DNA from: Hormoscilla sp.
Lineage (GTDB): Bacteria > Cyanobacteriota > Cyanobacteriia > Cyanobacteriales > Desertifilaceae
Direction of reading: 5' to 3'
DNA length: 26,897 nt
NCBI GenBank assembly: GCA_051439505.1
Contig: JBFRWI010000154.1
Span: 1 to 26,897, forward strand
Below the pieces are notes generated by a model. The model did no database searches. It was not told where the DNA came from and saw only the letters and a program-made list of their open reading frames with translations. Each line of letters starts with the position of its first letter. Position 1 is the first letter of the stretch. Shown here piece by piece: positions 6,215 through 21,193 of this stretch. Both the position numbers and the translations under genes were made by a program.

Positions 6215-6733
6215 ATGACGCAGGAACTCATGGACTTAAGAAATAGCATCCTGGAGGAACGCTATGAGGACGCTTTGGCGATCGTAGATGAGCTAGAGGG
6301 AATGGGTAAACAAGCAATTTTGCGAAATATCGAATCATTTCTGGTCAGGATGTTGATTCATTTAATCAAAAACCAAGTTGAGTCCCGTTTAACCAACTCG
6401 TGGGTAGCTTCAATTTCCGATTCTCTACTACAAATTAAAAGGCTAAATCTCAAGGACAATAAAACCTCTTACTATATCAAGTCAGATGAATGGCAGCCTT
6501 ATCTAGAAGATGCCTTAGCGGCAGCAATTCGTCCAGCGACGGCAGAAGTGCGGGGCGGTAAATTAAGGCCAGGGCAAATCTCAGAGATGATGGATGAAAC
6601 CCAGCTAATGCAGACGGCTGAAGAATTGTTGGCTCTGACTTATGTCCATAAAGTCAAGGATTTGCCGGATATCATCGACGAACATTTAGCGCAATTACCG
6701 GGTGGAAAAGATTGGCTTGAAGGTCGAACGTGA
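6215..6733 (+). CDS. DUF29 family protein
   Basis: 172 aa with the DUF29-like pattern DELEGMGK...ESFLVRMLIHLIK...SWVASI; collinear paralog at 11873-12394. Confidence 0.8.
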   Translation: MTQELMDLRNSILEERYEDALAIVDELEGMGKQAILRNIESFLVRMLIHLIKNQVESRLTNSWVASISDSLLQIKRLNLKDNKTSYYIKSDEWQPYLEDALAAAIRPATAEVRGGKLRPGQISEMMDETQLMQTAEELLALTYVHKVKDLPDIIDEHLAQLPGGKDWLEGRT

Positions 6734-11872: not shown

Positions 11873-12394
11873 TTATTCGGGTCTACCTGCTTGCCAATCT
11901 TCCCCACCTGGAAACGCAGTTAAATGTTCATCGATGATTGCTGGTAAGGTCTTGGCGGAATGTTCATAAGTTAAATCCAACAGCCTCTTAGCAGCCATAA
12001 TTACCTGTTCTCGATCCACCAACTCTGATAGTTTAAATGGACTTAACCGCCCATTCAATACTTCTACGCTAGCAGGGCGAATTGCTGCCTCGATCGCCTC
12101 CTCCAGCATTTCCTCCCATTCATCTGACTTGATATAGTAGGAAGTTTTATTCTCCTTGAGATTCAAATCTTGAATTTGCAGGATTGAATCTGAAATTGAT
12201 GCGGCCCAGGAATTAGTCAATCTTTGCTCGACTTGGTTTTTAATCAGGTGAACCACCATTCTGATTAAAAATGATTTAATATTGCGGATCGTTCCCTTTT
12301 TACTCATCCACTCTAACTCGTCCACCAAGGTCAAGGCATCTGTATAACGCCCCTCCATAATACTAGCTCTTAAATCGATTAGCTCTTGAGTCAT
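11873..12394 (-). CDS. DUF29 family protein (paralog of 6215-6733)
   Basis: Start set at MTQELIDLR by ungapped alignment to the first copy (about 111/172 identical by hand count). Confidence 0.8.
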   Translation of the reverse strand: MTQELIDLRASIMEGRYTDALTLVDELEWMSKKGTIRNIKSFLIRMVVHLIKNQVEQRLTNSWAASISDSILQIQDLNLKENKTSYYIKSDEWEEMLEEAIEAAIRPASVEVLNGRLSPFKLSELVDREQVIMAAKRLLDLTYEHSAKTLPAIIDEHLTAFPGGEDWQAGRPE

Positions 12395-12960: not shown

Positions 12961-13971
12961 ATGACCAGCAAACCCCTGAAAATTATCGTAGATACGGACC
13001 CCGGTGGAGACGATACCTTCGCCTTATTGTGGTTGATGAGTTTGGCGAAAAAAGGTCTCGCCGAGATCGTCGCCATTACCACCGCAGACGGCAATGTCCG
13101 CCCTAATTATACCTTTGCCTCTGCTGGTAAAATCCTCAGCTTAGGTGGTTTCGATCGGGTGTTGTTAGGTCGCGGCATCCGCCACGAAAGCGAAATAGGA
13201 GATGCTGCCCACATTCACGGAGTTGATGGCATGGGCAACCTCTCCCCTACTTTACCAGCATCGCCCCATAAATTTGCAGAAGCTCCCTACTCTGACGAGA
13301 TTATTATCGACAAACTCAGTGCGGAACCGGGAGAAATTACCCTAGTGACGATCGCCCCTTTAACCAACTTAGCAGCAGCGGAAACGAAGCAACCGGGCAT
13401 TCTCAAGCAGGCCAAGCAAATTGTGACAATGGCGGGGGCATTTAATTGTCGGGGAAATGTCACCCCGGTTGCCGAATTTAACATCGCCTACAACCCCGAA
13501 GCAGCAGCAACTTTCTTTGCTGCCCGGGAGGAGATCGCAGTCATACCCCTAGACCTAACTCACAAGCTGATTTTTACCGATGGAATGGCATCCGATATTG
13601 CCCGAGTTAACCCAGAACATGACATTGCCAAATTCATTCACGCCCTGGCCGAGTTTATGATTAAAACCAACCTCGGTTATCGCGAGACCAATGGCATCAA
13701 GGGCTTTTTAGTTCATGATGCCGCAACGATCGCCTATTTGTTTTACCCCGAAACCCTGTTGCTACGTCGCGCCCAAGTCAGGATCGAGACCAAAGGCGAA
13801 TGGACAAGGGGGAAAACAATAATGGACGATCGGCACATCCCCAAGACAGATCCTAATGCCTTCGTAGCCTTGCAAGTAGACGCAGCAAACCTGTTATCTA
13901 TTTTAGTAGAAGACTTGAAATCCTTAATCCCTGCGGAGGGTGGGCATTGCCAAAAAGCGCCCCATAAATGA
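12961..13971 (+). CDS. Nucleoside hydrolase (IU-NH family)
   Basis: N-terminal DTDPGGDD, HIHGVDGMG, PLTNLA, GNVTPVAEFNIAYNPEAA and HDA motifs. The last 12 aa probably result from read-through (see findings). Confidence 0.93.
   Translation: MTSKPLKIIVDTDPGGDDTFALLWLMSLAKKGLAEIVAITTADGNVRPNYTFASAGKILSLGGFDRVLLGRGIRHESEIGDAAHIHGVDGMGNLSPTLPASPHKFAEAPYSDEIIIDKLSAEPGEITLVTIAPLTNLAAAETKQPGILKQAKQIVTMAGAFNCRGNVTPVAEFNIAYNPEAAATFFAAREEIAVIPLDLTHKLIFTDGMASDIARVNPEHDIAKFIHALAEFMIKTNLGYRETNGIKGFLVHDAATIAYLFYPETLLLRRAQVRIETKGEWTRGKTIMDDRHIPKTDPNAFVALQVDAANLLSILVEDLKSLIPAEGGHCQKAPHK
13893..13951 (+). repeat. 59-bp direct repeat, left copy
   Basis: GTTATCTATTTTAGTAGAAGACTTGAAATCCTTAATCCCTGCGGAGGGTGGGCATTGCC, 57/59 identical to 16309-16367. 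Confidence 0.95.
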
Positions 13972-15271
13972 TACCGCTCAAAGTTGCCATCACCACCACT
14001 AGACAGACAAAGACAATAGTTTTCTTCGTACCGATAATGCTGCGGATCGCGAGCATATTTGGCAAAGATAAAGCAGGTCCTGCAAGTAACAAAGCCAAAG
14101 CAGGCCCTTGTCCCATGCCATTGCCAATCAATCCTTGCAAAATTGGCACCTCCGTCAAGGTAGCAAAATACATAAATGCACCCGCAAGGGCGGCAAAAAA
14201 GTTAGAAAATAGAGAATTACCTCCCACGGCCCCAGCTACCCACTGGGAGGGAATTAAGGCTTCATGGTCGGGGCGACCTAATAAGGCACCGGCAATGAGT
14301 ACCCCAAACAGCAGTAAGGGCAAGATTTGTTTGGCATAATCCCAAGAAGATTCAAACCATTCTCCTGCCTCATCCTTATTAGTGCTAGCGAGCCAAGATA
14401 GACCCAGGGTTGCAAAAGAAAAAGGAATGAGAGGTTGGCTGCCAAACTGCCAGGAAAGTGCGGCGGTAACTACAACAATCAGGATAACCTTGCCTGCATT
14501 AAGGTGGAGCCAGGCTATACCAATGACAGCTAAAGCCAGGCCAAACAGTCCCGTTATCCACCATTTCACGGCATAAATGCCATACCAGAAGCCAGTAGCT
14601 GCCTCCGGTTGTGCCCAGTTAGCAAAAACCAGAATCCCCACCAGAACTGCAAAAAATAGGGCATTTTGCCAGAGAGGGCGGCTTTCTGACTCCTGGGGAA
14701 GCATGGTTTGTGCCTTTATCTTCTCCAGGTCCTCCTCGCGGAAGATAAACTCCATCGCCAACCCGATGATAATGCTGAAGATAATCGCTCCCAGGGCGCG
14801 GGCGATGCCCAGGGGCATTCCTAAAATGCGGGCAGTGACAATAATGGCGAGAACGTTTATCGCCGGACCCGAATAAAGAAAAGCGATCGCTGGACCGAGG
14901 CCCGCCCCCATCCGGTAAATGCTAGCAAATAAGGGCAATACGGTACAGGAACAAACAGCTAACAGGGTACCCGATACCGAGGCAACGCCGTAAGCGAGTA
15001 AGGGATTTGCTTTGGCTCCGAGATATTTAATTACCGAGTTTTTACTGACAAAAACTGCGATCGCCCCCGCAATAAAAAAGGCCGGTATCAGGCACAACAG
15101 GACGTGTTCTCGGGCGTACCAGCGAACTAAATATAGGGCTTCCCAAAAGGCATTTCGCAGCCTTTCCGACTGTTGCAGGGCTTCTATTGGAAGATCAAAG
15201 CAGAGGACAAAAGCGGTAACAATGAGAGCTAGAGGCTTCCACTGCTCCCGCCAAAAAGATGAAACTTGCAT
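13898..15271 (-). CDS. Permease, ArsP/DUF318-like family
   Basis: Highly hydrophobic 457 aa with motifs AREHVLLCLIPAFFIAGAI, AVCSCTVLPLF, GPAINVLAI, YFATLTEVPI and GPALSLP. Confidence 0.88.
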   Translation of the reverse strand: MQVSSFWREQWKPLALIVTAFVLCFDLPIEALQQSERLRNAFWEALYLVRWYAREHVLLCLIPAFFIAGAIAVFVSKNSVIKYLGAKANPLLAYGVASVSGTLLAVCSCTVLPLFASIYRMGAGLGPAIAFLYSGPAINVLAIIVTARILGMPLGIARALGAIIFSIIIGLAMEFIFREEDLEKIKAQTMLPQESESRPLWQNALFFAVLVGILVFANWAQPEAATGFWYGIYAVKWWITGLFGLALAVIGIAWLHLNAGKVILIVVVTAALSWQFGSQPLIPFSFATLGLSWLASTNKDEAGEWFESSWDYAKQILPLLLFGVLIAGALLGRPDHEALIPSQWVAGAVGGNSLFSNFFAALAGAFMYFATLTEVPILQGLIGNGMGQGPALALLLAGPALSLPNMLAIRSIIGTKKTIVFVCLVVVMATLSGIIYGALFGNAHPPQGLRISSLLLK

Positions 15272-15289
15272 GATTTCTTTCCTTCCTAA

Positions 15290-15532
15290 TTAAGCAGTTA
15301 AATAGGATTGAATTTTTTCGGAGGTGGCTACTTTGCCTTGACTTACGAGTTTGTCATTGACGACGAGGGCGGGAGTTGTCATTACGCCCTTTTCGGCAAT
15401 TTTCATGGGGTCGGTAATATGTAGCACTTCCGCATCCAGTTTCAGAGCAGCGATCGCCTCTTTAGCGTTCGCTTCGAGTTGCCGGCATTTTTTACAGCCC
15501 GTTCCTAAAACTTCTACTTTAATGGTACTCAT
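15290..15532 (-). CDS. Small thioredoxin-like redox-active disulfide protein (MTH895-like)
   Basis: 80 aa from the ATG at 15532 (AGGAG upstream): IKVEVLGTGCKKC...GVMTTPALVVND. The longer ORF-track start would run through the promoter. Confidence 0.9.
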   Translation of the reverse strand: MSTIKVEVLGTGCKKCRQLEANAKEAIAALKLDAEVLHITDPMKIAEKGVMTTPALVVNDKLVSQGKVATSEKIQSYLTA

Positions 15533-15563
15533 GGCTGAACTCCTTTTCTGTTTAACCATTTCC

Positions 15564-15595
15564 AGCTTAATCCCTATACCCAGGTATAATGTCAA
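15564..15595 (-). promoter_or_regulatory. MerR-type promoter/operator for the thioredoxin-permease operon
   Basis: Minus strand TTGACA-N20-TAAGCT with the dyad TATACC-TG-GGTATA inside the over-long spacer, the hallmark of MerR-family targets. Confidence 0.8.
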
Positions 15596-15773
15596 GGGGT
15601 TTTGAGTAAATTTTTTTTGAGGAGCTAAAATAATGTTTAAGTCGCAGCTGTATTTTGTTTTGGCAGGACTTTGCGTTGCTGAGGAGGCGGCTATTTGGTC
15701 TAGCTGTGGCTTAAAGAAGGGCCTAAGCTGTCGCGCATTTAAATTGCATGGATCCAAATGCTGAAGCCCTTGC

Positions 15774-15861
15774 TATCAATTATCAATTATCAATTATCAA
15801 TTATCAATTATCAATTATCAATTATCAATTATCAATTATCAATTATCAATTATCAATTATC
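15774..15861. repeat. Short tandem heptamer repeat (STRR-like), (TATCAAT)x12 plus TATC
   Basis: Twelve perfect units counted; the tract supplies the last codons and TGA stop of the MerR gene. Confidence 0.97.
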
Positions 15862-16241
15862 TCCAGTACAACGCATTCCTTATTGGAATCGAGATTGGCC
15901 CGACACAAAGCGATTAAAGGTACCAGTTCGTCCCGCAGCACTTCCATCTGTCGAATTTTTTCCTCAATTTCTCGAACTTTCTTGCTGAGTAGGTCATGGA
16001 CTGCTTGACAGGTGAGCGATCGCCCATCTTTCAAGGCTATAATTTCTTTAATCTCATCCAAAGTTAGGCCCAAGGACTTGGCCCGGACAATAAAGTCAAG
16101 GCGTTCCACATCCTCCTCGCTGAAGAGCCGATAACCGGCAGCGGTCCGTTGGGGAGATGGGATTAATCCAATGCGTTCGTAAAAGTAAAGGGTTTGTGGA
16201 TTGAGTCCCAAACGACGAGAGACTTCGCCCATTTGAAACAT
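15846..16241 (-). CDS. Heavy-metal-responsive MerR family transcriptional regulator
   Basis: ATG 16241 with GGAGGT upstream; HTH MGEVSRRLGLNPQTLYFYERIGLI...GYRLF...AKSLGLTLDEIKEI; Cys in LTCQAV and C-terminal C-X9-C. Confidence 0.92.
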   Translation of the reverse strand: MFQMGEVSRRLGLNPQTLYFYERIGLIPSPQRTAAGYRLFSEEDVERLDFIVRAKSLGLTLDEIKEIIALKDGRSLTCQAVHDLLSKKVREIEEKIRQMEVLRDELVPLIALCRANLDSNKECVVLEIIDN

Positions 16242-16308
16242 GGCCGTACCTCCATTACCAAAAAACCGGGTTTCAAGCCCTTTCAGGCTGACTTTTAAAA
16301 AATCTCTA

Positions 16309-16367
16309 GTTATCTGTTTTAGTAGAAGACTTGAAATCCTTAATCCCTGCGTAGGGTGGGCATTGCC
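16309..16367 (+). repeat. 59-bp direct repeat, right copy (holds the likely original hydrolase stop codon)
   Basis: Translates LSVLVEDLKSLIPA-TAG in the hydrolase frame and continues into an intact GTAG REP. Confidence 0.95.
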
Positions 16368-16478
16368 CACCTTACGACTTCATCTAGGGTAGGACATTGC
16401 CCACCTTACCAGTTTACAGCCTGCGCAGGCAGGCTTCGTTCGGAGTAGCCCCACTCTTTAGGGTGGCGGCGGTGGCGG
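16351..16478 (+). repeat. REP-like cluster: two GTAGGGTGGGCATTGCCCACCTTAC-type units plus two-hairpin element copy 3 (16418-16468)
   Basis: GTAGGGTGGGCATTGCCCACCTTAC (16351-16375), a degenerate copy at 16385-16409, then AGCCTGC-GCAG-GCAGGCT-N9-GTAG-CCCCACTCT-TT-AGGGTGG. Confidence 0.85.
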
Positions 16479-17780
16479 CTACTTAAGAGTCGCCATCACT
16501 TCTTTAGCAGCTGCCAAAGTCTTATCAATATCTTCCTCTGTGTGAGCCAGAGAAGTAAACCCGGCCTCAAACTGAGAAGGCGCTAGGTAGATACCCCGTT
16601 CTAACATCCCGTTATGGAAGCGCCCAAATTTATTGGTGTCCGACTTTTTAGCATCTTCAAAGTTGTGAACCGGGCCCTTGGTAAAGAATAAGCCAAACAT
16701 GGCGCTAATGTGACCCCCACAGGCTTCATTACCCGTTTCTTTGGCAATTGAGAGCAACCCATCAATCAGCTTTTTGGTAATCTGATTGAGTTGTGCGTAA
16801 GTACCCGGTTTTTGCAGCAACTCCAGAGTCTTGATACCAGCTGTCATGGCCAAAGGATTACCCGAAAGCGTCCCCGCCTGGTACATCGGACCTGCTGGTG
16901 CCACCATAGACATGATGTCTTTGCGTCCGCCATAGGCTCCTACTGGCAACCCGCCGCCGATGATCTTGCCGAAGGTCGTCAGATCGGGTTTGATGCCGAA
17001 TTTCTCCTGGGCACCGCCGTAAGCGATCCGAAAGCCAGTCATTACTTCGTCAAAGACCAGCAAAGCTCCATTCTCTTGGGTGATCAAGCGCAAGCCTTCC
17101 AGAAAGCCAGCATCGGGGGCAATAAATCCCGAATTACCCACTACTGGCTCCAGAATTACCCCCGCTATTTGCTCGGGGTTTTCGGCAAATAGGGCTTTCA
17201 CGGCTTCCAGGTCGTTGTAGGGAGCCGTGAGGGTGTTGGCAGTGGTAGACTTGGGAACGCCGGGGGAGTCGGGTAATCCCAAGGTGGCCACCCCAGAACC
17301 CGCTTTCACCAGGAACATATCGGCGTGACCGTGATAGCATCCTTCAAACTTAACGAGCTTGTCGCGCTTGGTGAAGGCTCGCATCAAGCGCTGGACGGAC
17401 ATGCAGGCTTCGGTGCCGGAGTTGACAAACCGCACCATTTCTATGCTAGGGACGGCATCGATGACCATTTTCGCGAGCACGTTTTCTAGTTCGCAGGGCG
17501 CACCAAAGCTAGTACCATTTTCTAGCGCCTTGCGCAGGGCCTCGTTCACTTCCGGATGGGCGTGGCCGCAAATGGCTGGTCCCCAGGTGCCTACGTAGTC
17601 GATGTACTGGTTGCCATCCACATCCCAGATGTAAGCGTCTTTTACCCGCGAGAACACTATGGGTTTTCCACCTACGGATTTGAAGGCTCGCACTGGCGAA
17701 CTGACGCCCCCTGGCATCAGTTTCTGGGCCGCTGCGAAAATCTCTTGTGATTTGGTGGTCTTGAGAGTAGTTGCTTTCAA
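16479..17780 (-). CDS. hemL: Glutamate-1-semialdehyde 2,1-aminomutase
   Basis: [56 protein letters not shown] lysine in [22 protein letters not shown]. Likely TTG start at 17780 behind AAGGAG. Confidence 0.97.
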
Positions 17781-17963
17781 AGTTGTTCTCCTTGGTTGAA
17801 TGCTCAACTATTGATTTGAGAATAGGCGTATTTATAGCACAAATTAACTATGTGCATCATCCTTTGTCCAGTTTATCCGTCTCACGCCCCGGGCCGGATG
17901 CCTGTCGGTGGGGCTGGCAATGCTATTCTAAACAAATGTTAAGAGAATATTACCCAACGCCTT

Positions 17964-18605
17964 ATGTCCCAAGCTGCTGTTACCCAACCCATCGAGATCG
18001 AGCAAATTCGCTACAATGAGCAAGGACTGGTGCCCGCCATTATCCAGGACTATCTGGATGGTACGGTGCTGATGATGGCCTGGATGAACCGGGAGTCCCT
18101 GGAAAAGACTCTCTCCACTGGCCAAACCTGGTTTTGGAGTCGTTCCCGTACCGAGTTGTGGCATAAGGGCGCTACTTCCGGACATTTGCAAAATGTGCGA
18201 TCGCTCCGTTATGATTGTGACAGCGACGCCCTGCTGATCGCTGTCGATCAAGTGGGTGACATTGCCTGTCACAAGGGCGAACGTAGTTGTTTTCATCAGG
18301 TCAGCGGTACGGTTACTCCGCCCCCGGCAGATACCCTCTCTCAACTCGAAGCTGTCATTCGCGATCGCCGCGACAACCCCAAGGAAGATTCCTATACCTG
18401 CAAGCTATTCGCAGGTGGGGATAACAAGATTCTTAAAAAGATTGGCGAAGAGTCCGCTGAAGTGGTAATGGCCTGCAAGGATGACGATAAAGAGGCGATC
18501 GCATCTGAGGCTGCCGACCTATTTTATCATACCCTGGTAGCCTTAGCACATCACAACGTTGATGTCAAGGATGTCTATCGCAAGTTGCAGGAACGCCGTC
18601 GTTAA
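17964..18605 (+). CDS. hisIE: Bifunctional phosphoribosyl-AMP cyclohydrolase / phosphoribosyl-ATP pyrophosphatase
   Basis: GLVPAIIQD...[18 protein letters not shown]...DCDSD...[10 protein letters not shown], followed by SYT...[10 protein letters not shown]...EAADLFYH. Confidence 0.97.
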
Positions 18606-18607
18606 CT

Positions 18608-21193
18608 ATGGACAACAACTACTCCCCCCGAACCCTAAAGGGTCCGGCTACAGGTTTAAAGCCCGCCTGCGCGGGCTTTAAACCTGGTTTATTCACTCTT
18701 AGAACCTGTCAGTTATTACTCTGTAGTTCCCTATTCCTGCTGGCTGTTGGGAAGAAAGTCCAAGGGCAAATTATCCCTGATCGCACCTTAGGCCCCGAAA
18801 GTTCAGTCGTCCGAAATAACGTCCCAGTCAGAGGGGAACCAGCAGACTTAATTGAAGGCGGGGCCATCAGAGGAGAGAATGTGTTTCACAGTTTCTCCGA
18901 ATTTAATGTCGGTCAATTGCAGAGGGTATATTTTGCCAATCCTGCGGGCATAGAAAACATTTTCAGTCGAGTCACGGGCAATAATATATCCCAGATTATG
19001 GGCCGCCTGGGAGTAGATGGCGGGGCTTCTATGTTTGTGATTAATCCCAATGGCATCATCTTCGGTCCCAATGCTAGATTAGATGTAGGTGGTTCATTTA
19101 TTAGTAGCACGGCCAATAGCGTCGAGTTCGATCGCTATCAATTCAGTGCGACAAATCCCGTAGCCCCACCATTACTCACTATCAATGTACCATTAGGTTT
19201 GCAGTACGGACCCAACCCGGGGGCAATTAGAGTAGAAGGATCCGGTCACAATATCATCCCATCTCCCACCCCAGGACTTTTACCAATCAATCGTCCACCG
19301 ACCGCAGATGGTTTGCAGGTTGGACCACTTCAAACCCTCGCCTTGATAGGGGGCGATGTTACCTTAGATGGAGGCACCCTGACAGCCGACTCCGGACGGA
19401 TTGAATTAGGAAGTGTCAGCAATGGTTTCGTCAGCCTCAAGCGGACTGAAATAGGATGGAATTTGGGCTATGAAGAATTCACTCAATACGGTGACATTCG
19501 GCTACAAAACGCCGCATTAGCAGATGCCAGTGGTGAGATTGGTGGAGAGATAATTGTGCGAGGAGGGAATCTGTTCATGTCCGGTGGTGCCTGGATTGGG
19601 ATTCAAGATCGAGGGTCACAACCATCGGGCAGCATCAGCATCAATATGTCGAACAACATAGACATGATTGGCATCTCCCCAAATGGGATTAATACTGCCG
19701 TGCGAACGGAAGCCTTGGCAGATGGTCGGGGTGGGAACATTTCGGTTTTGGCAAGAAACCTGAGTATAATCGATGGGGCATTTATAGCATCTTTTACTTT
19801 TAGTAACCTTGCTGGTGGTCGTGGTGGGGATATCGCCGTGTCAGTTGCTGAAGAGGTGCAATTCCTAAGATTTGCACGGAATAATCAAGTTAGCAGCATT
19901 TTCACTACAACTTTTGCTTCTCAAGATGCCGGAGAAACCCGATTGTTAACGAGACGAATGACACTTCAAGATGGAGGAGTATTGACATCTTCAAGCTTTG
20001 GGACTGGTAAAGGAGGAGACGTGACCGTAAATGCGGCTGAATCTATAGAATTGAGCGGAACGAATATCAACAATAATATTTTTCCTAGCGGGTTCGGTTC
20101 TATCGCTGGTAACGCTGGAGATGCGGGGGATTTAACAGTTAACACATCCGATTTGGTAGTGACCAATGGCTCGACGGTCTCAACTTCCAGTTTTGCGAGT
20201 GGGAATGCCGGAAATGTGACCATTAATGCCACCAATTCAGTCGAGATAAGTGGTGTAGGTCCCGGTTCGATCATTCCCGCTCAGGTGGACTCCTCTGCTC
20301 TCAGGAGATCCCAGTCTTTCCGAGACTTTTTAGGATTGCCAGATAGACCTTCGGGGAACTCGGGCCAGGTGACGATTAATACTCGAATTTTGAAAGTGAC
20401 AGATGGGGGGATTGTCAATGTTAGAAATGATGGCACGGGGGATGCTGGCACCATAGAGATTAATGCCGATGCTATTTTCCTGGACGACAAAGGTGAAATA
20501 ACTGCGGTGACAAGATCGGGCAACGGGGGAAATATTCAACTGCATGTTGCTGATGCTCTGATTTTGCGCTCCCTAAGTGCCATTACCGCTCGTGCCGGAA
20601 CCGAACTTAGCGGTGGAGGGGATGGGGGCAACATCACGATCGACAGTGGGACTTTAGTCGCCCTAGAGGGTAGCAATATCAATGCTAATGCCTTTGAGGG
20701 TAACGGCGGGAACATTCTGATTACTACCTCGGGTATCTTTCTAGCGCCTGATAGTCAAATCACGGCCAGTTCTCAACTGGGAGTAGATGGTACAGTAGAA
20801 GTTTCTACCCCAGATATGGACCCAGCTGCTGGGTTGGTAGAGTTAGGAAAACGGCCCATAGATGTAGAGCAACTGATTGGTAAAGACTTTTGCAAACTCA
20901 GTCGGGACAGTTCTTTTATAGCGACAGGCAGGGGTGGTTTACCGGAGTCCCCTCTAGAAGAACTTCAGCCCCATGTAGTCTGGCAAGATTTGCGCCTTAC
21001 ACCTCCTTTCCCCAGGGGGGATGAAACAAGTACTCCTATACAGCAAAGTCGGACAATTGTGGAGGCCCAAGGATTGGTAACGGATGCTAATGGGAATGCG
21101 GTACTGACTGCTTACCCGCCTGTGGTGACGCCTGTGGGGACTTGGTTACATCCTGTGGACTGTCAGATGTTGAGGAGTAATGGCGATCGGTGA
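18608..21193 (+). CDS. Filamentous-haemagglutinin N-terminal (TPS secretion domain) exoprotein
   Basis: Signal-like segment ending VQG/QIIPD; NVFHSFSEFNV, NIFSRVTG, INPNGIIFGPNARLDVGGSF; about ten GG/AG-[ND]-I-x-I beta-helix repeats; C-terminal SSFIATGRGGLP...IVEAQG tail. Confidence 0.92.
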   Translation: MDNNYSPRTLKGPATGLKPACAGFKPGLFTLRTCQLLLCSSLFLLAVGKKVQGQIIPDRTLGPESSVVRNNVPVRGEPADLIEGGAIRGENVFHSFSEFNVGQLQRVYFANPAGIENIFSRVTGNNISQIMGRLGVDGGASMFVINPNGIIFGPNARLDVGGSFISSTANSVEFDRYQFSATNPVAPPLLTINVPLGLQYGPNPGAIRVEGSGHNIIPSPTPGLLPINRPPTADGLQVGPLQTLALIGGDVTLDGGTLTADSGRIELGSVSNGFVSLKRTEIGWNLGYEEFTQYGDIRLQNAALADASGEIGGEIIVRGGNLFMSGGAWIGIQDRGSQPSGSISINMSNNIDMIGISPNGINTAVRTEALADGRGGNISVLARNLSIIDGAFIASFTFSNLAGGRGGDIAVSVAEEVQFLRFARNNQVSSIFTTTFASQDAGETRLLTRRMTLQDGGVLTSSSFGTGKGGDVTVNAAESIELSGTNINNNIFPSGFGSIAGNAGDAGDLTVNTSDLVVTNGSTVSTSSFASGNAGNVTINATNSVEISGVGPGSIIPAQVDSSALRRSQSFRDFLGLPDRPSGNSGQVTINTRILKVTDGGIVNVRNDGTGDAGTIEINADAIFLDDKGEITAVTRSGNGGNIQLHVADALILRSLSAITARAGTELSGGGDGGNITIDSGTLVALEGSNINANAFEGNGGNILITTSGIFLAPDSQITASSQLGVDGTVEVSTPDMDPAAGLVELGKRPIDVEQLIGKDFCKLSRDSSFIATGRGGLPESPLEELQPHVVWQDLRLTPPFPRGDETSTPIQQSRTIVEAQGLVTDANGNAVLTAYPPVVTPVGTWLHPVDCQMLRSNGDR
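18628..18686 (-). repeat. Two-hairpin REP-like element copy 4, inside the first codons of the exoprotein ORF
   Basis: 47/50 identical to 76-125; extended to a perfect 16-bp stem CAGGTTTAAAGCCCGC-CTGC-GCGGGCTTTAAACCTG (18651-18686). Confidence 0.9.

What the first reader, a model, noticed from the sequence alone, without database searches (positions are those of the whole stretch)
13893..16367. Integrase-less 2.4-kb MerR-thioredoxin-permease cassette bounded by a 59-bp duplication of the nucleoside hydrolase 3' end
Seen: 13893-13951 and 16309-16367 are 57/59 identical direct repeats 2416 bp apart, enclosing exactly three co-oriented genes. The right copy encodes ...EDLKSLIPA-TAG and runs into an intact GTAG REP; the left copy breaks off inside that REP palindrome (GGGCATTGCC|AAAAAG). 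No integrase or transposase lies inside or elsewhere in the window. Established: att-like duplications of a gene end mark integrated elements, and REPs are substrates of HUH (RAYT/TnpA-REP) enzymes. Inference: a metal-response module entered at a REP by single crossover or REP-directed recombination and could excise as a 2416-bp circle.
Basis: partly seen in the sequence, partly recalled or inferred. Interest (0 to 1): 0.8.

Follow-up and report, generated by a model that had tools for sequence, protein, structure and literature searches.

The report
Recombinase-less metal cassette duplicating gene tail
A 2.4-kb gene module that likely handles metal stress, nearly identical to one in distantly related bacteria, sits between two 59-base copies of a host gene's end that relatives carry only once, and it was likely put there (and would loop out) by the cell's own recombination rather than by a REP enzyme; the same kind of scar recurs at other gene ends of this genome.

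Summary
The duplication is real: 57/59 identical, 2416 bp apart, and supported by independently assembled contigs. Three of 4 congeners show the empty site; 0 of 4 carry the module. Two MAGs (hemL 77% identical) hold the module at 94-97% without any repeat, so it moved horizontally. One contig from another study joins the right copy straight to the permease, the head-to-tail joint of a circle or tandem array (one low-depth contig). There is a fourth, broken gene (ynfA), and the permease stop lies inside the left copy. A cognate RAYT exists elsewhere in the genome, but the break lies inside the REP stem, and only 2 of 7 gene-tail duplications in this genome touch this REP. Seven of 22 sharp two-copy repeats duplicate an upstream gene's 3' end; 4 have congener empty sites, and the cobS unit is gained or lost as one piece. 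Best reading: host-recombination insertion-duplication of a 'gene tail + cargo' unit, like unconventional circularizable structures or the H47 island. The scan noted the same scar on other DNA before (five notes). Known kind, unusually well documented here.

The parts
12961..13971 (+). Nucleoside hydrolase (target gene). It now ends in an 11-residue tail because the left copy lacks the TAG stop.
   Evidence: PF01156 E 1.8e-70; ORF; joined to the right copy it would end at IPA-stop
13893..13951 (+). Left 59-bp copy (in-frame hydrolase end plus 5' part of the REP, GGAG variant). It also holds the permease stop on the - strand.
   Evidence: A at 13900 is shared with G001 and G003
13898..15271 (-). 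ArsP_1/DUF318 permease (SO_0444/SaoE/ArsP-like), 457 aa; last 17 codons come from the repeat
   Evidence: PF03773 E 1.7e-74; NF033936 and NF040736 below cut-off; 96.7% and 97.3% DNA identity to L153 and L154
15290..15532 (-). Small CxxC thioredoxin-like protein (MTH895/ArsE family)
   Evidence: PF13192; TIGR00412 93.3 bits over cut-off 62
15564..15595 (-). Predicted MerR-type promoter/operator: TTGACA, 20-nt spacer with a TATACC..GGTATA dyad, TAAGCT
   Evidence: The motif recurs beside homologous modules (18 regex matches in held loci, some of them the same place fetched twice) and once in the own genome; function inferred
15633..15711 (+). 5' relic of ynfA (UPF0060, SMR-like), divergent from the thioredoxin gene; cut off by a genus-wide repeat
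   Evidence: matches the start of the intact 107-aa gene in L153; PF02694 and NF002586 over cut-off
15724..15860 (.). Genus-wide dispersed repeat (15724-15780) followed by a (TTATCAA)n array that replaced the ynfA 3' part and the merR tail
   Evidence: 80+ hits in own genome; hits in congeners; absent at this place in L153, L154 and the X4, X12, X14 contigs
15846..16241 (-). Metal-sensing MerR-family regulator, 131 aa, with the three-Cys set (C78, C114, C123)
   Evidence: PF09278/PF13411; ZntR, CadR-PbrR, MerR and CueR models all below cut-off; Cys align with 4ua1_A, E 1.3e-25
16309..16367 (+). Right 59-bp copy (displaced hydrolase end with TAG stop), followed by the native downstream flank
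16351..16409 (+). Two GTAG-type REP hairpins of a family with hundreds of copies
   Evidence: 449 complete and 15 broken matches to a strict pattern, both strands, so palindromic copies can count twice; cognate RAYT at G000:C230 (L070) with 5 REP copies around it
16479..17780 (-). hemL (glutamate-1-semialdehyde aminomutase; name recalled from the protein), conserved right neighbour
   Evidence: PF00202; lies next to the hydrolase or its remnant in G001, G002, G004, G005 and G007

Best explanation
This is a recombinase-less insertion-duplication: a horizontally shared MerR-ynfA-thioredoxin-permease module, predicted to sense and export a metal, lies between two copies of the hydrolase 3' end, most likely because a unit made of the last 59 bp of the hydrolase/REP plus the module was integrated as a circle by a single crossover carried out by host recombination. 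Step 1 (inferred): the module was joined to host DNA by two illegitimate junctions with 1 to about 5 nt of overlap, one in the REP stem at the permease's last conserved codon and one 67 bp upstream of merR. Step 2 (inferred, supported by allele pattern and the X4 joint): the unit recombined into a second strain's empty site, with the exchange resolved in the last 15 bp, leaving copies of different ancestry. Step 3 (predicted): the direct repeats let the unit loop out or amplify head to tail without an enzyme of its own. MerR would activate thioredoxin and permease from the 20-bp-spacer promoter in response to a thiophilic metal (Zn, Cd, Cu or Hg; not resolved).
For: Empty site with one copy in G001, G003 and G004; hydrolase then hemL without the module in G005 and G007; module not found in 4 of 4 congeners. 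Donor-type copies without repeat or hydrolase: L153 aligns 13951-15711 and 15861-16309, ending at both repeat edges with 1 nt overlap; L154 overlaps the REP end at 5 of 6 nt. Module identity is 94-97% against hemL 77% in the same genomes. Head-to-tail joint 16352->13937 in run X4, another study, strain about 99% identical, carrying the right copy's T allele next to the permease. The left copy's A is shared with G001 and G003; the right copy's G is the G004/G005/G007 state. Recurrence: 7 of 22 sharp two-copy repeats duplicate an upstream gene's 3' end (random 2.3+-1.5, P=0.006; 5'-end control 2 vs 2.2), with no shared core seen by eye. Empty sites were seen at cobS, C220:6456 and C220:17721. 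At cobS, G004 equals G003 plus one 893-bp unit, G000 equals G002 plus the same unit, and G001 and G004 show the head-to-tail joint in assembled genomes. PF00589 was not found in G000 nor in 3 of 4 congeners, while all 14 controls rang. Precedent: PMC5426353 (abstract, introduction) and PMC7843796 (passages).
Against: The circle rests on one contig of depth 4.6 in one run. If that strain's two copies are identical and both flanks went unassembled, graph collapse would give the same joint; no hydrolase or right-flank contig was seen there to decide. Runs X1 and X2 (depth about 150-200) list no such joint, though contigs drop rare forms. A crossover confined to 15 bp is short for RecA (recalled), and the implied empty allele with GGAG was not observed. 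In that joint the permease would read in frame into merR, which does not look like a selected unit. A one-step insertion plus two later mutations gives the same picture. The enrichment test includes the focal case, and its 110-nt slack was set after I saw the list. Seven of the 10 other loci tested in congeners gave no clear empty site.
Confidence: 0.5

Rival explanations
1. One-step event without a circle: replication template switching at the REP hairpin, or homology-anchored illegitimate uptake of linear DNA whose far end rejoined 59 bp behind, made two identical copies. The left copy then gained two mutations, one giving the permease an earlier stop. The X4 joint is a later excision or amplification product, or an assembly collapse.
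For: Both junctions have only 1-5 nt of overlap with donor-type sequence. Microhomology junctions, some at REPs, are reported for E. coli amplification (PMC1428787, passages). A at 13900 shortens the permease tail from 32 to 17 residues. X4 has T beside the permease, as expected if the copies began identical. HIP1 lies at the 5' edge of 2 of 7 gene-tail repeats.
Against: It needs two substitutions in one 59-bp copy, one of them matching the G001/G003 allele, while the cargo differs from X4's by only about 1-1.5%. The cobS unit sits in two different downstream backgrounds with the same junction, which fits unit-wise movement.
Confidence: 0.3
2. RAYT (HUH) cleavage and strand transfer at the REP made the left junction and perhaps the exchange, so that REPs act as entry points for foreign genes.
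For: A cognate RAYT over the NF047646 cut-off with five REP copies around it. The X4 joint puts any exchange in the last 15 bp, the REP arm. Window, L153 and L154 all part at the same base, C|AAAAAG, and C|A is a reported site for one group 3 enzyme (PMC8266576). At C220:6456 the native gene end also runs into this REP.
Against: Reported cuts lie 5' or 3' of the hairpin, not in the stem. The target break is C|C and the 5' edge is T|G. G401 and G402 have 0 copies of the REP, so their junctions cannot be its work. Five of 7 gene-tail duplications lack it, and with hundreds of copies near gene ends 2 of 7 is not clearly above chance (not formally tested). Run X6's permease alignment stops one base short of the shared C.
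Confidence: 0.1
3. Remnant of an integrase-encoding island, or a unit moved in trans by a host site-specific recombinase, with the 59 bp as the att core.
For: A regenerated gene end plus a displaced fragment is the classic island signature. Nine resolvase-domain (PF00239) matches exist in G000.
Against: Donor-type DNA runs up to both repeat edges, leaving no room for att arms or an integrase scar. No PF00589 was found in G000 (93% complete). The seven target genes share no core seen by eye, and repeat lengths run from 41 to 127 bp.
Confidence: 0.07
4. Assembly artefact of the window.
For: The genome is a 232-contig assembly, and no single listed contig spans the whole left copy.
Against: Independently assembled contigs span the right copy and the REP|permease junction with 0 differences; depth is even over hydrolase, cargo and hemL; the copies differ at two sites.
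Confidence: 0.02

Closest known systems
Unconventional circularizable structures (UCS; Palmieri et al. 2013, seen only as cited in PMC7843796, passages read)
   Same: No recombinase; cargo between direct repeats; circle and empty site as reciprocal products.
   Different: UCS repeats are described as long and often hold resistance genes. Here the repeat is 59 bp of a host gene tail, and the circle is not shown by PCR.
E. coli H47 genomic island (PMC5426353, abstract and introduction read)
   Same: Small island without recombinase, imperfect direct repeats, host-supplied excision and re-integration at a matching site.
   Different: H47 is 13 kb and its mobility is shown and RecA-independent. 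Here the unit is 2.4 kb, the pathway is untested, and the repeats differ at only 2 of 59 sites.
Campbell-type insertion-duplication, and integrase islands that regenerate a gene's 3' end (recalled)
   Same: Target gene end regenerated, displaced copy on the far side followed by the native flank.
   Different: No integrase in the unit, and no PF00589 found in the genome; seven different target genes.
REPtron / TnpA-REP (RAYT) systems (PMC8266576, passages read)
   Same: GTAG-led short perfect hairpin family with a cognate RAYT in the genome; one junction lies in a REP.
   Different: The break is inside the stem at C|C; there is no REP at the other junction or in the donor-type genomes.
Shewanella SO_0443 (ZntR-like)-SO_0444 Cu/Zn efflux operon (PMC3219624, passages read); ArsP-ArsE pairs (NCBIfam names)
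   Same: Metal-sensing MerR regulator with a DUF318 permease; ArsE-family small thioredoxin.
   Different: The permease scores far below the SO_0444 and SaoE cut-offs (106 vs 300; 118 vs 325); there is an extra thioredoxin and a divergent ynfA; the metal is unknown.

Membership tests
UCS / recombinase-less circularizable island | No recombinase or transposase encoded | tested here: met
UCS / recombinase-less circularizable island | Cargo flanked by direct repeats | tested here: met
   59 bp, shorter than the long repeats described in PMC7843796
UCS / recombinase-less circularizable island | Empty site with one repeat copy | tested here: met
   G001, G003 and G004, where most of the hydrolase is deleted; G002 lacks the repeat region
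UCS / recombinase-less circularizable island | Circular form exists | tested here: inconclusive
   one head-to-tail contig in run X4; circle, tandem array and collapse are not told apart
UCS / recombinase-less circularizable island | Excision and integration by host functions | not testable with these tools
   needs genetics
RAYT/REPtron-mobilised DNA | GTAG REP family with a cognate RAYT in the genome | tested here: met
RAYT/REPtron-mobilised DNA | Breaks at C|T or C|A outside the hairpin | tested here: not met
   target breaks are C|C inside the stem and T|G, against PMC8266576; donor-side C|A noted
RAYT/REPtron-mobilised DNA | REP association across events | tested here: inconclusive
   2 of 7 gene-tail duplications touch the REP; 0 copies in G401 and G402
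Integrase-dependent genomic island | Integrase in the element or the genome | tested here: not met
   none in the window; PF00589 not found in G000 (genome 93% complete); serine-type domains exist elsewhere
Integrase-dependent genomic island | Regenerated gene end plus displaced fragment | tested here: met
   (the regenerated end has lost its stop)
Metal-sensing MerR operon (ZntR/CadR/MerR type) | Three-Cys metal site and long-spacer promoter with dyad | tested here: met
   no equivalog cut-off reached; the long-spacer rule is recalled
Metal-sensing MerR operon (ZntR/CadR/MerR type) | Metal induction and resistance | not testable with these tools
   needs assay

The most novel reading that the evidence does not exclude
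In a cyanobacterial genus that seems to lack tyrosine integrases, small 'gene tail + cargo' circles are a routine, enzyme-free class of homing elements that carry metal-resistance and toxin-antitoxin modules between strains, and the resident RAYT makes some of them by cutting inside its REP and joining foreign DNA to it, which would be the first natural footprint of REP-mediated gene capture.
Probability: 0.12. Interest if true: 0.8.

Novelty: new member of a known kind. Interest (0 to 1): 0.4.

Why it matters
It is a well-documented natural case of gene gain without mobility genes: donor-type copies, empty site, filled site and a head-to-tail joint are all in hand. The same architecture recurs at several gene ends of one genome, in a genus where the commonest integrase family was not found in 4 of 5 genomes. 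This suggests that host recombination on tails of 40-130 bp is an ordinary route for small stress modules in these mat and sediment cyanobacteria. It also gives a cheap, direct test of whether a RAYT ever captures foreign genes. The mechanism class itself is known, and this scan noted the same kind of scar in five other genomes.

Tried and rejected
The order-wide search matched 49 of 401 genomes, own included, none above 79% apart from the own genome. No flanking duplication was found around the module in L153 or L154, so long target duplication is not a property of the module. The idea that L153's neighbouring partial mfd copy is a matching duplication was dropped: G402 has a partial mfd copy too, away from the module. 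An integron secondary site was considered because the repeat starts with GTTAT (consensus recalled); rejected because that gives no 59-bp duplication and no integrase was found. My first reading of the X4 joint as a hybrid of both copies was wrong by one base and was corrected. The hemL tree did not resolve the congeners; closeness to G001 and G003 rests on one small gene (98.1% vs 95.9-96.3%). The promoter scan allows only 16-18-nt spacers and missed the MerR-type site. Loci C10, C81, C225, C77, C189, C2 and C228 gave no clear empty site. Missing cover of hydrolase and flanks in X4, and of trx/merR in X6, proves nothing on its own. Paper searches for this architecture in cyanobacteria (listings only, 0 papers) found no direct description, but the library misses most subscription journals. 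PMC2884548 (passages) added nothing specific. No supplements were opened.
Full report
Observation. The window (G000:C154) is from a likely cyanobacterium (HIP1 octamers throughout; label recalled). The 59-bp direct repeat is at the stated places, 2416 bp apart, with differences at 13900/16316 (A/G) and 13936/16352 (G/T). It has two full copies in the genome and the cargo is single-copy. The right copy carries the hydrolase's TAG, which is also the GTAG of an intact REP. The left copy has GGAG, so the hydrolase gains 11 residues, and it breaks three bases into the REP's 3' arm. Independently assembled contigs span the right copy (X3) and the REP|permease junction (X2) without differences, at even depth. 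These runs are one study and may be the source, and no listed contig spans the whole left copy.

Cargo. It holds MerR (131 aa, three Cys aligning with 4ua1_A; no equivalog cut-off reached), an ArsE/MTH895-family thioredoxin (over cut-off) and an ArsP_1/DUF318 permease. A TTGACA-20 nt-TAAGCT promoter with a dyad recurs beside homologous modules. The permease's stop lies inside the left copy, while 105 of 107 homologues end within three residues of the junction. By analogy with Shewanella SO_0443-SO_0444 (PMC3219624, passages) this is likely a metal-sensing efflux module; the metal is not known.

Empty site and donors. G001, G003 and G004 have one copy followed by REP and the same downstream DNA (hemL adjoins in G001 and G004; G003's contig ends), with most of the hydrolase deleted. 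G002 lacks the repeat region. G005 and G007 have a full hydrolase before hemL without the module. None of 4 congeners matched the module. Two MAG loci carry it at 94-97% DNA identity without repeat or flanking duplication, and no hydrolase was found in those genomes with this query. Their hemL is only 77% identical, so the module moved horizontally; the direction is inferred. L153 matches right up to both repeat edges with 1 nt overlap, and L154 overlaps the REP end at 5 of 6 nt. Contigs of runs X12 and X14 show similar repeat-free contexts and are not counted as independent. Run X6 has an intact hydrolase (95%) ending in the REP, and the permease (98.5%) with other flanks. Unexplained: window, L153 and L154 all part at the same base after the permease's last conserved codon.

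Head-to-tail joint. Run X4 (another study, cargo about 99% identical) has one 686-nt contig, depth 4.6, that goes from 16352 back to 13937. It carries the right copy's T directly before the last 15 bases and the permease. The window's own two copies could not collapse into this in a 31-letter graph (inference). A strain with identical copies and unassembled flanks could, so circle, tandem array and collapse are not told apart. In that joint the permease would read in frame into merR. The left copy's A matches G001 and G003, and the right copy's G matches G004, G005 and G007. This fits copies of different ancestry joined by an exchange in the last 15 bp, though two later mutations also fit.

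Recurrence. Of 22 sharp-edged two-copy direct repeats in the genome (30-200 bp, 0.8-30 kb apart; filtered from 236), 7 including this one duplicate the 3' end of the upstream gene. Random placement gives 2.3+-1.5 (P=0.006 in 2000 trials; 5'-end control 2 vs 2.2). The test used ORFs of 150 aa or more as genes, includes the focal case, and its slack was chosen after I saw the list. Of 10 other loci tested in congeners, 3 showed an empty site with the distal copy's flank (cobS in G002; C220:6456 in G003 and G004; C220:17721 in G001) and 7 were unclear. At cobS (gene name recalled), G004 equals G003 plus one 893-bp unit, G000 equals G002 plus the same unit, and G001 and G004 contain the head-to-tail joint. 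PF00589 was not found in G000 or in 3 of 4 congeners while 14 of 14 controls rang. Resolvase-domain genes exist, but the targets share no core that I could see.

REP and RAYT. The REP family is real (449 complete and 15 broken strict matches; 109-114 exact copies in each of three congeners). It has a cognate RAYT on C230. However, TnpA-REP is reported to cut at C|T, or C|A for one enzyme, 5' or 3' of the hairpin (PMC8266576, passages). Here the target breaks are C|C in the stem and T|G, the donor-type genomes lack the REP, and only 2 of 7 gene-tail duplications touch it. The REP may simply extend the shared homology past the stop codon or act as a fragile hairpin; REPs appear among microhomology joints in E. 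coli but, by the authors' reading, not preferentially (PMC1428787, passages).

Verdict. Shown: the duplication, the empty site, horizontal sharing of the module, the lack of a recombinase in the unit, recurrence of the architecture, and unit-wise gain or loss at cobS. Inferred: integration as a circle by host single crossover (0.5), against a one-step illegitimate insertion-duplication (0.3), RAYT action (0.1), a decayed or helper-driven island (0.07) and an artefact (0.02). It works like a UCS (PMC7843796, passages) or the H47 island (PMC5426353, abstract and introduction); the circle criterion is inconclusive. Eight paper searches (listings) found no description of this architecture in cyanobacteria within the library held. 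Five earlier notes of this scan describe the same kind of scar in other genomes (seen after my analysis, not checked). New member of a known kind; interest 0.4.

Noticed in passing
G000:C38:21410-22429 (L179); L184-L187: A 127-bp cobS 3'-end duplication brackets a two-gene UPF0175/PIN-like pair (names recalled). It is empty in G002, filled in G000, and has an extra head-to-tail unit in G001 and G004.
   Followed up: yes
G000:C220:6456-7578 and 17721-19501; C10:5741-12036; C81:24425-25601; C225:18763-23808: Further gene-tail duplications (41-126 bp) around small cargo. At C220:6456 the native stop runs into the same REP family. At C225 (plsY, name recalled) G003 and G004 hold a second copy with a different junction behind other cargo.
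   Followed up: partly
genus-wide: No Phage_integrase (PF00589) match in G000, G001, G002 or G004; only G003 has two. Odd for bacteria, if the loose first look did not miss them.
   Followed up: partly
L021:5130-5270; L023; L024; L022: The nucleoside hydrolase is being lost in the genus: G001, G003 and G004 keep only the last ~31 codons; G002 lost its 3' part.
   Followed up: no
L153:6043, L154:6043, window 13951: Three near-identical permease copies part at the same base after the last conserved codon, each with a different tail (REP arm, heptamer array, unique); a fourth (run X6) stops one base earlier.
   Followed up: partly
L153:2059-3502; L163; L164: Partial duplicates of the mfd 3' half in G401 and G402; in G401 the metal module starts 38 bp after it.
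   Followed up: partly
L071 (G000:C24) 1944-2178: A second RAYT-like ORF flanked by its own GTAG-led repeat family.
   Followed up: no
window 6215-6733 and 11876-12394: Two inverted DUF29-like paralogues (71% over 335 nt), beside HicB-like and UPF0175 genes; small toxin-antitoxin-type cargo is dense in this window.
   Followed up: no
G000:C208:3074-4424: A 30-bp tRNA-like duplication brackets a radC-like gene (names recalled) with no integrase.
   Followed up: no
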